A stretch of 64,000 bases of DNA from the human T2T-CHM13v2.0 reference genome, Homo sapiens, in assembly GCF_009914755.1 (NCBI RefSeq), contig NC_060933.1; one strand, given 5' to 3'. The number at the start of each line of letters is the position of its first letter. Positions within the stretch are counted from its first letter, which is position 1. The position numbers and the translations under genes are program-made. The notes under the pieces were generated by a model. It made no database searches and had not been told where the DNA came from. It worked only from the letters and a program-made list of their open reading frames with translations. Positions 3,300 to 12,660 of this stretch are shown here, one piece after another.

Positions 3300-4481
<1,182 letters not shown>

Positions 4482-5623
4482 TAGGGGTTAGAAGTGCTCA
4501 GCAGCTCTGAGAGTGTGGAAAGGACCTGTCAAAGGTGGCCTCACAGTGAGGTGCGCAGGTAGAGGCCCAGGTATTTTGCTGGAGGACCCCCAATTGTCAG
4601 CATTTTTCAGTTGTTTCTCCTCTCTGAGGCATCTCACTGCTGGGCATGCACACTTCCACTCCCTCCCTGTTTTCACTTAAGTGGTCACTCCTGCTTTCAG
4701 TTACATCTGGTGACCCCATGGCCAGAGATTCTCTGGTTTAAGGTCTCCAGAGATCTCCTGCTGGTGAGGAGAGTGTCACCTCTAACTGCTTAGAATTACA
4801 GCCAGTCTCCCATTTTTAAAGTTACCAGGTATAGCCAATGCATGCTATGCCTTTCTGGGGTTCTGCAGCATAAACCAGCTTGCTTCTTGTTGGCTTTTTG
4901 TCCCAAAGGCATGTAGCTGTGTGGAGAAAGCTGAATCCTATGCCCTTAACACTTGCCCATCCACTTAGCCAAATTTTTTTTTCTTTGTTTTTTTCTTTTT
5001 ACCTCTTTCGTCTACAAGCCACACTTATCCAAAATTCTGTTGACAACTCACACTTGCTATTATACCTGCTTCTATTCTCCTAGTTAGTCCCTGTGGGTTT
5101 ATACCTTTTTATTCTTTCATTGTTATTTTAATGAGGTTTCTGTAGGAAGCAGAGTTAAATGCCTATGTTTACTCCATCATGGTTATCTGTAAGTCTGAGG
5201 TGAATTTCAAAAACTCACGACATGATCAAACAAGAAGGGTACTCCTAAAGAAAAAGGAACAGTTAGAGAAAAAGTACAGGGGAATGAAAGAGCATGGTAT
5301 AAATAAGTAACAGGAAGTATTTGCAGTAGAAGAACCTCAGTGAAGTGGCCTGAGCACTAGGGCAAAACAAGCCAGAGTGTGAATCCAGGCTCTGCTATTT
5401 AGTCGTCATATGACCCAGGATATGTTTCTTCCCTTCTCTGAGTTTCTGTTTCACCACACTTACCTCCCTGGTGGCTGAAGCCCAAATGACATAATTAAAG
5501 CTCTAAAGTATTCTGAAACATAGCAATGATTACTGTAATCATAAATATTTCTGCAAAAGAATTATTTTTTAAAAAAATCAACCCATGCCAAATTAAAAAA
5601 TTTAAATACAAAAGTTACAGTAC

Positions 5624-5794
5624 CTGAAGCAACACGTCCTTCTGATTGGTACTTTCTGTTAGATGTTTGATCACTTGCTCTTGATTGTGCAATTTTTTAT
5701 TGCTTTCACTCAGAAGACTCTTGTAACGATTTTCCATTGCTTTCTCTCTTTCATTCACTTCATTGCGTAATTTTTCAACTTCATTTCTAAGATC
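5624..5794 (-). CDS. CDK5RAP2: CDK5RAP2 coding exon (~exon 13, 171 nt): DLRNEVEKLRNEVNEREKAMENRYKSLLSESNKKLHNQEQVIKHLTESTNQKDVLLQ
   Basis: Manual translation. Acceptor ctggtag|GAT, donor CAG|gtactg. Confidence 0.95.
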
Positions 5795-8452: not shown

Positions 8453-9074
8453 CTATCAGTCTGAATTCATGATCACACACACACACAGAGAATTGGAAAG
8501 ACATAGAAATATAAATATACATGTTTGTATGCATGTGTCAATACACATATTTCAGCTCTGTACACTGACAAATCCTAGAGGCAATAACACTCCAGTAGTA
8601 ATGAGGATACCTATCATTCACATCTTGGTTTCTAAATATCATTTTCCAATAAAAGAAACCAGTGTTTCTTGGGCAAATACTTGATTCCAGACCTGGAGCA
8701 GGGAAAACATAATACGAAATGAGCCTAGGAGATCTTGTGCTCCTAGAAAGCAAGGAATTGCTCAAAAAATGAGGAGTCATGTTGAAAAGGCACAGGAATC
8801 AATTTGAAGGAGCTCCCAATGGCCAAGTCTGGGTCAATCTGAACAATAAAATAAATAATGATAGTAATGGCTTATAACTTATAGAGTAAAACAGTATCTG
8901 CAAGTCCATACTGATAGAAACAAATAACTAATAAACAAATGCAGGAGGAGGAAGAGGACAGCTCTTCCTCATGGTAGACATAATACAACTAATAAGAATA
9001 GAAGGAAAGATAGAAAAAGAAAATAACAACTAGGTAAACACCACAGTAATAACTGTTGCAGGTAAGAATCATCA

Positions 9075-9427
9075 GGCGGCGCCGGAGGCCCCAGAAGGGT
9101 CGAAGGCGCCGCGGGCTGGGGTCGGTGGCTTAGGGAGCCCGTCTGGCCATGGTGGCCGCGGCTGGTGGTTGGCGCGGCTGCGCTGCGGCCCGGGGCAGTG
9201 CGGAGCCAGGACAGTCGCGGCGCTGACGCCCGCGGGCCCCAGCTGCAGATATGAAGCGGAGCCGCTGCCGCGACCGACCGCAGCCGCCGCCGCCCGACCG
9301 CCGGGAGGATGGAGTTCAGCGGGCAGCGGAGCTGTCTCAGTCTTTGCCGCCGCGCCGGCGAGCGCCGCCCGGGAGGCAGCGGCTGGAGGAGCGGACGGGC
9401 CCCGCGGGGCCCGAGGGCAAGGAGCAG
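9075..9427 (+). other. MAST2: Transduced MAST2 5'UTR/exon 1 copy (CpG island) spliced to SVA
   Basis: 9251-9427 encodes MKRSRCRDRPQPPPPDRREDGVQRAAELSQSLPPRRRAPPGRQRLEERTGPAGPEGKEQ, the recalled MAST2 N-terminus. It ends at GAGCAG|CCGCCTGCC, the SVA Alu-like splice acceptor. Very CpG dense. Confidence 0.92.
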
Positions 9428-9479
9428 CCGCCTGCCTTGGCCTCCCAAAGTGCCGAGATTGCAGCCTCTGCCCGGCTGC

Positions 9480-11215
9480 CACCCCGTCTGGGAAGTGAGG
9501 AGTGTCTCTGCCTGGCCGCCCATCGTCTGGGATGTGAGGAGCCCCTCTGCCTGGCTGCCCAGTCTGGAAAGTGAGGAGCGTCTCCGCCCGGCCGCCATCC
9601 CATCTAGGAAGTGAGGAGCGCCTCTTCCCAGCCGCCATCACATCTAGGAAGTGAGGAGCGTCTCTGCCCGGCCGCCCATCGTCTGAGATGTGGGGAGCGC
9701 CTCTGCCCCGCCGCCCCATCTGGGATGTGAGGAGCGCCTCTGCCCGGCCGAGACCCCGTCTGGGAGGTGAGGAGCGTCTCTGCCCGGCCGCCCCGTCTGA
9801 GAAGTGAGGAGACCCTCTGCCTGGCAACCACCCCGTCTGAGAAGTGAGGAGCCCCTCCGCCCGGCAGCTGCCCCATCTGAGAAGTGAGGAGCCTCTCCGC
9901 CCGGCAGCCACCCCATCTGGGAAGTGAGGAGCGTCTCCGCCCGGCAGCCACCCCGTCCGGGAGGGAGGTGGGGGGGGGTCAGCCCCCCGCCCGGCCAGCC
10001 GCCCCATCCGGGAGGGAGGTGGGGGGTCAGCCCCCCCGCCCGGCCAGCCGTGCCATCCGGGAGGGAGGTGGGGGGGTCAGCCCCCCGCCTGGCCAGCCGT
10101 GCCATCCGGGAGGGAGGTGGGGGGGTCAGCCCCCCGCCCGGCCAGCCGCCCCGTCCGGGAGGTGAGGGGCGCCTCTGCCCGGCCGCCCCTACTGGGAAGT
10201 GAGGAGCCCCTCAGCCCGGCCAGCCACCCCGTCCGGGAGGGAGATGGGGGGGTCAGCCCCCCCACCCGGCCAGCCGCCCCGTCCGGTAGGGAGGTAGGGG
10301 GGTCAGCCCCCCGCCTGGCCAGCCGCCCCGTCCGGGAGGGAGGTGGGGGGGTCAGCCCTCCGCCCGGCCAGCCGCCCCGTCTGGGAGGTGAGGGGCGCCT
10401 CTGCCCAGCCGCCCCTACTGGGAAGTGAGGAGCCCCTCTGCCCGGCCAGCCGCCCCGTCCGGGAGGGAGGTGGGGGGGTCAGCCCCCCGCCCGGCCAGCC
10501 GCCCTGTCCGGGAGGGAGGTGGGGGGGTCAGCCCTCCGCCCGGCCAGCCGCCCCGTCTGGGAGGTGAGGGGCGCCTCTGCCCGGCTGCCCCTACTGGGAA
10601 GTGAGGAGCCCCTCTGCCCGGCCAGCCGCCCCGTCCGGGAGGGAGGTGGGGGGGTCAGCCCCCCGCCCGGCCAGCCGCCCCGTCCGGGAGGGAGGTGGGG
10701 GGGGGGTCAGCCCCCCCGCCCAGCCAGCCGCCCTGTCCGGGAGGTGAGGGGCGCCTCTGCCCGGCCGCCCCTACTGGGAAGTGAGGAGCCCCTCTGCCCG
10801 GCCAGCCGCCCCGTCCGGGAGGGAGGTGGGGGGGTCGGCCCCCCGCCCGGCCAGCCGCCCCGTCCGGGAGGGAGGTGGGGGGGTCGGCCCCCCGTCCGGC
10901 CAGCCGCCCCGTCCGGGAGGTGAGGGGCGCCTCTGCCCGGCCGCCCCTACTGGGAAGTGAGGAGCCCCTCTGCCCGGCCAGCCGCCCCGTCCGGGAGGGA
11001 GGTGGGGGGGTCAGCCCCCTGCCCGGCCAGCCGCCCCGTTCGGGAGGGAGGTTGGGGGGTCAGCCCCCCGCCCGGCCAGCCGCCCCGTCCAGGAGGGAGG
11101 TGGGGGGGGTCAGCCCCCCTGCCCGGCCAGCCGCCCCGTCCGGGAGGTGAGGGGCGCCTCTGCCCGGCCGCCCCTACTGGGAGGTGGGGAGCCCCTCTGC
11201 CCGGCCACCACCCTG
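9480..11215 (+). repeat. SVA VNTR (GC-rich ~35-50 bp units)
   Basis: Repeated GGGAAGTGAGGAGCCCCTCTGCCCGGCC and CCGTCCGGGAGGGAGGTGGGGGGGTCAGCCCCCC units. Boundaries approximate. Confidence 0.92.
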
Positions 11216-11731
11216 TCTGGGAGGTGTGCCCAACAGCTCATTGAGAACGGGCCAGGATGACAATGGCGGCTTTGTGGAATGGAAAGGCGGGAAAGGTGGG
11301 GAAAAGATTGAGAAATCGGATGGTTGCCGTGTCTGTGTAGAAAGAAGTAGACATGGGAGACTTTTCATTTTGTTCTGCACTAAGAAAAATTCCTCTGCCT
11401 TGGGATCCTGTTGATCTGTGACCTTACCCCCAACCCTGTGCTCTCTGAAACATGTGCTGTGTCCACTCAGGGTTGAATGGATTAAGGGCGGTGCAAGATG
11501 TGCTTTGTTAAACAGATGCTTGAAGGCAGCATGCTCGTTAAGAGTCACCACCACTCCCTAATCTCAAGTAATCAGGGACACAAACACTGTGGAAGGCCGC
11601 AGGGTCCTCTGCCTAGGAAAACCAGAGACCTTTGTTCACTTGTTTATCTGCTGACCTTCCCTCCACTATTGTCCCATGACCCTGCCAAATCCCCCTCTGT
11701 GAGAAACACCCAAGAATTATCAATAAAAAAA

Positions 11732-11778
<47 letters not shown>

Positions 11779-12057
11779 ATCATCAATGGATGCTAGAATT
11801 CTTCAAAGTATGACGAGAAGCAGGATATTCATATAGTCTCAAAAGATCTCCCCACAAAATTAATTATAAAGGGAATAAAATAGTGACTTTATAGTGAAGA
11901 AACCCAGAAGATTCCACTTTAACCAAGTGACTAGCACTAACCTCATCAATAATGACAGACTGACATTACGCACCTCCAAATACAATACACTAAGAAGAGC
12001 ACATCACTTCCATGCTATTCTTGCCAAAAACACATAACCTCAATCTAATCATGAGAG

Positions 12058-12660
12058 TGTTGGGAGAAAAGCTGAGTGTTGGGAGAAGCTGAGGCAGGGC
12101 TTGATATCTGACATAATGTAAAAGAGTCTTGGAACATGTCCGGGGTTCAGGGTCTAAAACCCCTGTGGCCTTTGGAACACCAAGCTCTGTGCTAAAGGGT
12201 GGAAGGCTACCCTGATGCACCATAATCTAAGCCCAGGGCATAAAACCCCTCGTGGCTTGGATAGAATCCAGGGCTCAAGGCATAAAATCCCTTGTAGCTC
12301 TAGGATGTGTCTAGTCTTGCTGGCTCCTTGCTCTCCCAGGATGGATTGTATCTTGAGTTAAAAGAACCTGCTCTCCGTTATCTCAAGTAGCAGAACATGT
12401 TCCATATGCCGCAAAGGAAATGCTAAACTGTCACAGCTGTGGATCACGTGCTTGCCCTTTCCCATATTCTCACCACCTGTTTCTTTGTTTGATCACCAAT
12501 AAATAGTCTGGGCTTCCAGAGCTCCAGGCCTTCCCAGCCTCCATACTTAGCGATGGCCCCCTAGTGCCACTTTCTCTCTCAAACTGTCTTTTCTCATTCC
12601 TTTGACTCCGACGGACTTCATTGCCCCCACGACCTGGTGTTGGGTCTGATCACCCCAACA
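12058..12660 (+). mobile_element. Solo ERVK-class LTR (LTR14B-like)
   Basis: TGTTGGG...CCCAACA inverted termini, ~600 bp, AATAAA at 12498-12503, 6-bp TSD TGAGAG/TAAGAG (1 mismatch). Subfamily from recall. Confidence 0.8.

What the first reader, a model, noticed from the sequence alone, without database searches (positions are those of the whole stretch)
9064..11785. Human-specific MAST2-SVA_F1 inside the microcephaly gene CDK5RAP2
Seen: a complete insertion with an 11-bp TSD, MAST2 exon-1 leader, VNTR, SINE-R and poly(A), antisense in intron 12, ~3.3 kb upstream of the exon 13 acceptor. Known: SVA_F1 is a human-specific subfamily formed when MAST2 exon 1 spliced into an SVA; SVA VNTRs are bound by the KRAB-ZFP ZNF91; CDK5RAP2 loss causes primary microcephaly (MCPH3). 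From memory (verify), a human-specific intronic SVA in CDK5RAP2 has been reported to repress the gene via ZNF91 and delay neuronal maturation, so the element is probably described. Inference: it is a human-lineage regulatory insert in a brain-size gene, and its sub-parts (next findings) can be tested separately.
Basis: partly seen in the sequence, partly recalled or inferred. Interest (0 to 1): 0.8.

Follow-up and report, generated by a model that had tools for sequence, protein, structure and literature searches.

The report
Known SVA_F1 retrotransposon inside CDK5RAP2 intron
This is one young SVA_F1 jumping-gene copy sitting backwards in an intron of the microcephaly gene CDK5RAP2, and it is the same element that a 2023 paper deleted and reported to hold the gene's expression down, so it is real but already described.

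Summary
Window 9075-11774 is one 2,700-bp SVA_F1 insertion on the + strand, antisense to CDK5RAP2. It is flanked by an exact 11-bp duplication, AAGAATCATCA, at 9064-9074 and 11775-11785. In order it has an unmatched G, 352 bp of MAST2 exon 1, a 36-bp Alu-like remnant, about 1.75 kb of VNTR, one SINE-R, two AATAAA signals and a poly(A) tail.

A search of the window's own genome found the true MAST2 exon 1 on chr1, followed there by a GT intron. It also found at least 38 other leader-bearing places.

CRISPR guides and cloning primers from Nadler et al. 2023 (Commun Biol, PMC10063665) map onto this element. It is therefore their "human-specific tandem SVA_F". Two points refine that paper:
- It is one element, not a tandem pair. 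The paper never mentions MAST2.
- Their working deletion spans about 3.4 kb, including the leader and about 0.7 kb of flanks. Their reporter lacks the first 226 bp of the leader.

ZNF91 dependence at this locus is indirect. I could not test human specificity (no ape genomes) or check the intron 12 numbering.

Verdict: real, correctly read and already known, with modest interest.

The parts
9064..9074 (+). 5' target-site duplication AAGAATCATCA
   Evidence: It is identical to 11775-11785, and the 11-mer occurs only twice in the window.
9075..9075 (+). Extra G at the 5' end that matches neither the TSD nor MAST2
   Evidence: The MAST2 locus and all nine other aligned loci have C before GCGGCGCC. 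From recalled knowledge, an untemplated 5' G is commonly ascribed to copying of the RNA cap.
9076..9427 (+). MAST2 exon-1 leader, which is a CpG island
   Evidence: 352 bp with 4 mismatches to chr1 locus L008; in L008 the sequence is followed by a GT intron, here by SVA sequence. computed on 9075-9427 including the extra G: GC 78%, 51 CpG, observed/expected 0.97.
9251..9574 (+). ORF of 107 aa from the MAST2 start codon, running through the splice junction into the VNTR
   Evidence: There is no evidence that it is translated.
9428..9463 (+). Alu-like remnant downstream of the MAST2/SVA splice junction
   Evidence: the same junction string (GAGCAG joined to CCGCCTGCC...) is in 6 other loci; it matches Alus elsewhere in the window.
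9464..11210 (+). VNTR of roughly 40 units, G-rich on the + strand
   Evidence: One search gives the TRF arrays. GC 78%, 139 CpG, and across the whole insert 12 G-quadruplex motifs on the + strand and 0 on the - strand.
11211..11738 (+). SINE-R with two AATAAA signals (11722, 11730)
   Evidence: 97.7-99.2% identity to the SINE-R of 20 other F1 copies; single copy in the window; the AATAAA positions.
11739..11774 (+). Poly(A) tail; the run of 38 A continues into the first two A of the TSD
11775..11785 (+). 3' target-site duplication AAGAATCATCA
5624..5794 (-). Next CDK5RAP2 exon downstream in the gene's direction; its acceptor side is at 5794
   Evidence: Hub gene table. Distance of 3,270 bp computed.
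8823..8845 (-). Published set-2 'right' CRISPR guide site (Nadler 2023)
12233..12255 (-). Published set-2 'left' CRISPR guide site (Nadler 2023)

Best explanation
Window 9075-11774 is a single, essentially full-length SVA_F1 retrotransposon copy. SVA_F1 is the subfamily in which MAST2 exon 1 is spliced onto the 3' end of the SVA Alu-like region.

LINE-1 machinery inserted it by target-primed reverse transcription into an intron of CDK5RAP2, in antisense orientation. It is the element published as the 'human-specific tandem SVA_F' of CDK5RAP2.

[quoted passage not shown] These lay H3K9me3 and DNA methylation over the 2.7-kb, CpG-dense insert. This small heterochromatin block inside the transcribed intron lowers CDK5RAP2 mRNA output in progenitor-like cells.

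Shown by sequence here: the identity of the element, its single-copy structure, its subfamily and the insertion hallmarks.

Shown in print, once and in NTera-2 cells: a deletion spanning the element raises CDK5RAP2 mRNA. So does ZNF91 knock-out.

Inferred: that ZNF91 acts through this element, that the VNTR rather than the leader or the flanks is responsible, and that there is any consequence in vivo.
For: Structure:
- The TSD, leader, VNTR, SINE-R and poly(A) tail are all present.
- The window holds only one leader and one SINE-R.

Subfamily:
- The leader search of the window's own genome gave 40 scored matches out of 80 candidates. These include the window's own copy and the true MAST2 exon 1 on chr1, which is followed by a GT intron.
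- The identical splice junction was found in 6 other loci.
- All 20 further copies I fetched align through the last leader base and carry a SINE-R 97.7-99.2% identical to this one.

Insertion mechanism:
- The TSD is exactly 11 bp and the A run is 38 long.
- The bottom-strand nick site reads TCTT/AC, against the L1 endonuclease preference TTTT/AA, which I recall rather than tested (sequence).

Same element as published: the guides and primers map uniquely onto its flanks and leader.

Function, from Nadler 2023 sections 7, 8 and 14:
- The set-2 deletion raises CDK5RAP2 mRNA (n=4).
- ZNF91 knock-out raises it (n=5).
- The cloned element lowers luciferase relative to empty vector.

General mechanism:
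[quoted passage not shown] - This copy keeps both borders and has 200 of the window's 705 CpGs.
Against: - The sections of Nadler 2023 that I read (7, 8, 14, 15, 27) report no ZNF91, TRIM28 or H3K9me3 measurement at this locus. They report no ZNF91 knock-out in an SVA-deleted background. VNTR and ZNF91 dependence was shown only for the CHAF1B SVA.
- By my mapping the working deletion runs from about 8829 to 12238, which is 3,410 bp. It removes the leader, 235 bp of 5' flank and 453 bp of 3' flank as well. The effect therefore cannot be assigned to the VNTR.
- The cells were transfected, sorted pools of a teratocarcinoma line.
- Horvath 2024 (abstract) reports the opposite direction at TAF1. 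There ZNF91 heterochromatin attenuates the SVA's effect, and removing it lowers host-gene expression.
- CDK5RAP2 does not appear in the held supplementary text of Haring 2021 or Horvath 2024. One Haring file was not searchable.
- In an F1 element most of the Alu-like region is gone. The main ZNF91 site at the Alu-VNTR border may therefore be altered; I did not test this.
Confidence: 0.6

Rival explanations
1. The insertion is a functionally near-neutral passenger. It is silenced like most SVAs and sits in a 26.9-kb intron with little or no effect on CDK5RAP2 in the developing brain. On this view the published effect is specific to the cell line or to the way the deletion was made.
For: - There is one study, using pooled NTera-2 transfectants with n=4, and the deletion includes about 0.7 kb of non-SVA intron.
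- Two full-text searches returned no independent report on this element by title and abstract. I opened only Nadler 2023 and PMC10901741. The latter's single CDK5RAP2 mention concerns a mouse retrogene.
- The gene is absent from the held supplements of two ZNF91/SVA perturbation papers.
- The element is antisense and 3.27 kb from the nearest exon. The hub table lists no exon of any of the 18 transcripts inside it.
Against: - Three concordant manipulations in Nadler 2023 moved CDK5RAP2 in the predicted direction: the deletion, ZNF91 knock-out, and lncRNA over-expression or knock-down.
- The cloned element lowered reporter output.
Confidence: 0.25
2. Any effect comes mainly from features other than ZNF91 binding. 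One candidate is the MAST2 CpG-island leader acting as an internal promoter, making + strand transcripts that converge with CDK5RAP2 transcription. Another is the G-rich VNTR on the template strand slowing RNA polymerase II through G-quadruplexes or RNA:DNA hybrids.
For: - The leader is a bona fide CpG island: 353 bp, GC 78%, CpG observed/expected 0.97.
- Damert 2018 (passages) states that the MAST2 exon can serve as an internal promoter, 'experimentally proven for SVA_F1', citing Zabolotneva 2012, which I did not see.
- This copy begins with an unmatched G inside the leader. That fits a capped transcript initiated there in its source element (inference).
- There are 12 G4 motifs on the + strand, which is the template for CDK5RAP2, and 0 on the - strand.
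- Nadler 2023 recovered the locus with an RNA:DNA-hybrid antibody, and recovery fell after the deletion.
- Neither the published deletion nor the reporter separates the leader from the VNTR. The reporter starts at 9301 and so lacks 226 bp of leader.
Against: - I have no transcript or CAGE data for this locus.
- The truncated-leader reporter still repressed.
- At family level, leader CpGs decay about as fast as SINE-R CpGs. My arithmetic gives 15 CpG transitions over 21 copies x 51 CpGs, against 2 over 19 copies x about 10 CpGs (counts). That argues against general germline protection of the island.
Confidence: 0.1
3. The locus holds two SVA_F elements in tandem, as the published wording ('tandem SVA_F, F') suggests.
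For: The wording and figure legend of Nadler 2023, taken from the UCSC RepeatMasker track.
Against: - There is one TSD pair, one leader, one SINE-R and one poly(A) tail, with a continuous VNTR.
- Dfam has no F1 consensus, so RepeatMasker leaves the MAST2 part unannotated (PMC12593883 passages).
- NCBI's mask starts only at 9364 (hub table).
- That split rows arise because the VNTR length differs from the consensus is my inference.
Confidence: 0.01

Closest known systems
SVA_F1 (MAST2-SVA_F) subfamily. It was described in 2009 by Damert et al., Hancks et al. and Bantysh & Buzdin, which I know only as cited in PMC6139936 and PMC12593883; the originals are not held.
   Same: - MAST2 exon 1 replaces the hexamer repeat and most of the Alu-like region.
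- The splice junction is identical.
- It has a VNTR, an SVA_F-type SINE-R, a poly(A) tail and a TSD.
- It meets the >320-bp MAST2 criterion for full length.
   Different: - The leader starts 10 nt inside the common start, with an unmatched G.
- It has 5 private substitutions in the SINE-R and none in the leader.
CH10_SVA_F / H10_1 source lineage: an SVA_F1 on chr10 flanked by an Alu on each side (PMC10681720 passages)
   Same: The leader carries two transversion markers, at 9099 and 9162. These are shared with all 7 sampled copies that have the chr10-type Alu 5' transduction (L011-L016, L020), and with L027. L030 shares the 9162 marker only.
   Different: It has neither the 5' Alu transduction nor the 3' transduction seen in L011-L014 and L030. 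Structurally it is a plain SVA_F1.
The intronic SVA_F in TAF1 that causes X-linked dystonia-parkinsonism (Horvath 2024, abstract)
   Same: It is a young SVA inside an intron of a neuronal disease gene, covered by ZNF91-dependent heterochromatin and altering host-gene output.
   Different: - The TAF1 element is a rare pathogenic allele with a hexamer repeat.
- There, heterochromatin protects the host gene, and losing it lowers TAF1.
- For CDK5RAP2 the published claim runs the other way.
Chimpanzee pt_SVA_D6, in which STK40 exon 1 is spliced onto an SVA (PMC6139936 passages)
   Same: A GC-rich first exon of a serine/threonine-kinase gene replaces the 5' part of an SVA.
   Different: It differs in host species, donor gene and SVA backbone.

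Membership tests
SVA_F1 | MAST2 exon-1 sequence at the 5' end (more than 320 bp for a full-length copy) | tested here: met
   352 bp with 4 mismatches to the chr1 MAST2 locus L008. The criterion comes from PMC12593883.
SVA_F1 | [quoted passage not shown] | tested here: met
   GAGCAG joined to CCGCCTGCCTTGGCC... here and in L002, L003, L004, L005, L007 and L010. In L008 the same exon end is followed by GTAGGG. My exact-string probe did not match L006 or L009. All 20 copies align through leader base 353.
SVA_F1 | No (CCCTCT)n hexamer repeat; VNTR, SINE-R, AATAAA and poly(A) present | tested here: met
SVA_F1 | L1-type insertion hallmarks: a TSD and a T-rich nick site | tested here: met
   Exact 11-bp TSD. 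The nick site TCTT/AC is read; the L1 consensus is recalled.
SVA_F1 | Human-specific: empty orthologous site in other apes | not testable with these tools
   No ape genome is held. Nadler 2023 calls this copy human-specific from the UCSC browser. The subfamily is called human-specific in PMC12593883. The 5 private substitutions in 917 bp give 0.55% divergence (95% interval 0.18-1.27%). That does not by itself exclude an age near the human-chimpanzee split.
CH10_SVA_F | An Alu transduced at each end | tested here: not met
   The TSDs abut the leader and the poly(A) tail directly.
ZNF91-repressed SVA | [quoted passage not shown] | tested here: inconclusive
   Both borders are present in the sequence, although only 36 bp of the Alu-like part remain. 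The motif is only in a figure of Haring 2021, so I could not scan for it. Occupancy cannot be tested here.

The most novel reading that the evidence does not exclude
The unrecognised MAST2 CpG-island leader, rather than or as well as the ZNF91-bound VNTR, is the active part. It would act as an autonomous promoter firing + strand transcripts, including a 107-codon MAST2-VNTR ORF, head-on against CDK5RAP2 transcription. On this reading the human-lineage change at this brain-size gene is an inserted antisense promoter and not merely a heterochromatin patch. The published experiments cannot exclude this. The deletion removed the leader together with everything else, and the reporter lacked its first 226 bp.
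Probability: 0.12. Interest if true: 0.5.

Novelty: already known. Interest (0 to 1): 0.3.

Why it matters
CDK5RAP2 loss causes primary microcephaly, so a human-lineage insertion that tunes the gene bears on human brain development. That claim is already in print.

This check adds precision for anyone who follows it up:
- The element is a single SVA_F1 whose 5' 353 bp form a MAST2-derived CpG island. The paper does not mention this, and 289 bp of the insert (9075-9363) are left unmasked in the NCBI file.
- The published deletion is about 3.4 kb and includes unique flanks.
- The published reporter is truncated within the leader.
- ZNF91 action through this element remains an inference.

Tried and rejected
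- 'Tandem SVA_F' was rejected. The window has one leader, one SINE-R, one poly(A) tail and one TSD pair.
- CH10_SVA_F membership was rejected on structure, because there is no flanking Alu, even though the leader markers are shared.
- I considered that the leader CpG island is protected from decay. In this copy there are 0 changes among 51 leader CpGs against 2 among 10 SINE-R CpGs (Fisher p=0.025). At family level, by my arithmetic, the CpG-transition rates are similar: about 1.4% per CpG in the leader and about 1.05% in the SINE-R. I do not press the idea.
- A donor for the five private SINE-R variants was not found. The best non-self SINE-R match in the genome scored 930 bits against 953 for self, but only 40 of 1,908 candidates were scored.
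- Presence/absence polymorphism stayed open. Neither 'chr9' nor 'CDK5RAP2' occurs in the held supplementary text of Pfaff 2021 (PMC8149882). One file was unreadable and the table format is unknown, so this is inconclusive. The supplement of PMC10681720 also gave nothing.
- Damert 2009 and Hancks 2009 are not held. Their lists of F1 members may well include this locus.
- The full-text search 'CDK5RAP2' + 'MAST2' returned 8 papers, none about SVAs by title or abstract. Nadler 2023 has 0 mentions of MAST2 in the main text and in 9 of 10 supplementary files.
- I did not resolve the exon numbering. I judged a large protein-database search not worth the cost for a label.
Full report
**Observation**

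The window sequence at 8900-12000 shows an insertion bounded by the exact 11-mer AAGAATCATCA at 9064-9074 and 11775-11785. That 11-mer occurs only twice in the 64-kb window, and the bases just outside the two copies differ. The duplication is therefore exactly 11 bp.

The 2,700 bp between the copies (9075-11774) comprise, in order:
- one G that matches neither the duplication nor MAST2;
- 352 bp of GC-rich sequence carrying an ATG at 9251, which opens a 59-codon frame ending ...EGKEQ;
- 36 bp of Alu-like sequence;
- tandem arrays at 9464-9962 (period 40, 12.8 copies) and 9937-11154 (period 49, 26.8 copies, with a 176-bp higher-order unit at 95% matches);
- a unique 528-bp segment;
- AATAAA at 11722 and 11730;
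- a run of 38 A.

The element is on the + strand and CDK5RAP2 is on the - strand (hub table). The 5' duplication starts 3,270 bp from the exon end at 5794. On the bottom strand the nick site reads TCTT/AC. From recalled knowledge, this is close to the LINE-1 endonuclease preference TTTT/AA.

**What it is**

I searched the window's own genome with the 353-bp leader. Of 80 candidates, 40 were scored. Twenty-one of these cover at least 334 of the 353 bases: the window's own copy, one locus on chr1, and 19 others.

In the chr1 locus (L008) the sequence is followed by GTAGGG, an intron donor. Its upstream sequence is GC-rich promoter-like DNA, so this is the MAST2 exon 1 source. In the window and in six other loci (L002, L003, L004, L005, L007, L010) the same last bases, GAGCAG, are joined to CCGCCTGCCTTGGCCTCCCAAAG..., the end of the SVA Alu-like region. 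My exact-string probe missed L006 and L009.

I then fetched twenty further copies. All align to the leader through its last base. All have a SINE-R that is 97.7-99.2% identical to the window's, although two are truncated.

This is the defining architecture of SVA_F1 (PMC6139936 and PMC12593883, passages). With 352 bp of MAST2 the copy meets the published full-length criterion of more than 320 bp.

**One element, not two**

The window holds exactly one leader and one SINE-R, one poly(A) tail and one duplication pair. NCBI's repeat mask starts only at 9364 (hub table). PMC12593883 notes that Dfam and RepeatMasker have no F1 consensus. This explains why 289 bp of the insert are unmasked. My inference is that it also explains why a browser track shows split SVA_F rows.

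**Lineage and age**

Untransduced copies (L009, L010) start 10 nt further 5', at AGAGGAGGTC. L021 and L023 start about 37 nt further 5'. Seven copies (L011-L016, L020) carry a shared Alu-containing 5' transduction. Five copies (L011-L014, L030) carry a shared 3' transduction. This is the CH10_SVA_F type described in PMC10681720.

The window copy has neither transduction. It nevertheless shares two leader transversions, at 9099 and 9162, with all seven 5'-transduced copies and with L027. L030 shares the 9162 marker only. I infer that it descends from that lineage or its immediate ancestor. Its RNA either started inside the MAST2 island, which the unmatched 5' G would fit, or was 5'-truncated on insertion.

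Compared with the 20 copies, it has no private change in the leader. It has five private changes in the SINE-R, at 11214, 11281, 11475, 11548 and 11590, of which two are CpG transitions. No better SINE-R match exists among the 40 scored of 1,908 genome candidates.

Five changes in 917 bp is 0.55% (95% interval 0.18-1.27%). At roughly 1e-9 substitutions per site per year, a rate I recall rather than tested, this is a few million years. That makes it old for an F1 copy. It is compatible with insertion on the human lineage but does not prove it.

**Link to the literature**

Nadler et al. 2023 (Commun Biol 6:347, PMC10063665) is the key paper. I read the abstract, sections 7, 8, 14, 15 and 27, and passages of the supplements. 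[quoted passage not shown]

- Their set-2 guides map uniquely to 8823-8845 and 12233-12255. By eye, two further guides abut the duplications, at about 9041-9063 and 11802-11824.
- Their cloning primers map to 9301-9318 and 11960-11980. It is therefore the same element.
- They report that the deletion raises CDK5RAP2 mRNA and lowers NANOG and POU5F1 in NTera-2 cells. It also increases sodium currents.
- They report that ZNF91 knock-out, or over-expression of the SVA-containing lncRNA AK057321, raises CDK5RAP2.
- They report that the cloned element lowers a luciferase reporter.
- MAST2 is mentioned nowhere in the main text or in 9 of 10 supplementary files.

**Refinements and cautions**

- With Cas9 cutting 3 bp from the PAM, the working deletion runs from about 8829 to 12238. 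That is 3,410 bp, not the 2.4 kb quoted. It takes out the leader, 235 bp of 5' flank and 453 bp of 3' flank.
- The reporter begins at 9301. It therefore lacks the first 226 bp of the leader, including the ATG.
- In the sections I read, no ZNF91, TRIM28 or H3K9me3 measurement was made at this locus, and no epistasis test was done. VNTR and ZNF91 dependence was shown on the CHAF1B element.
- Haring 2021 supports ZNF91 binding at the VNTR borders of 88% of SVAs.
[quoted passage not shown] It finds that this heterochromatin attenuates the SVA's effect at TAF1, which is the opposite sign to the CDK5RAP2 claim.
- CDK5RAP2 is not in the held supplementary text of either paper.

**Mechanism**

My best reading is a ZNF91/TRIM28-nucleated patch of heterochromatin on a CpG-dense insert that dampens host transcription. 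The insert holds 200 of the window's 705 CpGs.

The rivals are:
- a near-neutral passenger insertion;
- effects from the MAST2 island acting as an internal promoter (stated for F1 in PMC6139936, which cites Zabolotneva 2012, a paper I did not see);
- effects from the G-rich template strand, which has 12 G4 motifs on the + strand and none on the - strand.

**What I could not do**

- No ape or archaic genomes are held, so human specificity rests on the literature.
- Damert 2009 and Hancks 2009 are not held.
- Polymorphism status remains open.
- Exon numbering is unverified.

**Verdict**

It is already known, and the additions here are refinements.

Noticed in passing
L025, L026, L028, L029 (chr5:179.07 Mb, chr5:76.65 Mb, chr6:2.79 Mb, chr5:168.39 Mb of G000): Four SVA_F1 copies with unrelated flanks all begin at exactly leader position 19 (AGAAGGCTCG). 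This suggests a sub-lineage with its own 5' end, or a preferred internal start site in the MAST2 island.
   Followed up: no
L017, L022, L024 (chr12:42.18 Mb, chr6:43.41 Mb, chr3:11.48 Mb): Three copies share the short string ATCTTG directly before AGAGGAGGTC. The MAST2 locus does not have it there (it has AGCGC). This may be a tiny shared 5' extension that marks another sub-lineage.
   Followed up: no
L013 (chr16:85.89 Mb) and L014 (chr10:100.72 Mb): Both have the same interrupted poly(A) followed by the same 3' transduced Alu-containing sequence. This fits the chr16 copy having been made from the chr10 source element.
   Followed up: no
window 9075-9427 versus 11211-11738: This copy has 0 private substitutions in the CpG-dense leader and 5 in the SINE-R. 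That is the second-highest SINE-R count among the 19 copies compared. At family level the two regions do not differ in this way. The asymmetry is unexplained.
   Followed up: partly
window 8969-9598 and 9072-10007, - strand: ATG-initiated ORFs of 209 and 311 codons run antisense through the leader and the start of the VNTR. They are most likely a by-product of the GC-rich, stop-poor composition.
   Followed up: no
window 3894-4895: RefSeq lists two adjacent 'enhancer' functional elements in the next intron, downstream of exon 5624-5794 in the gene's direction and about 4-5 kb from the SVA (hub table). I did not examine any relation to the SVA.
   Followed up: no
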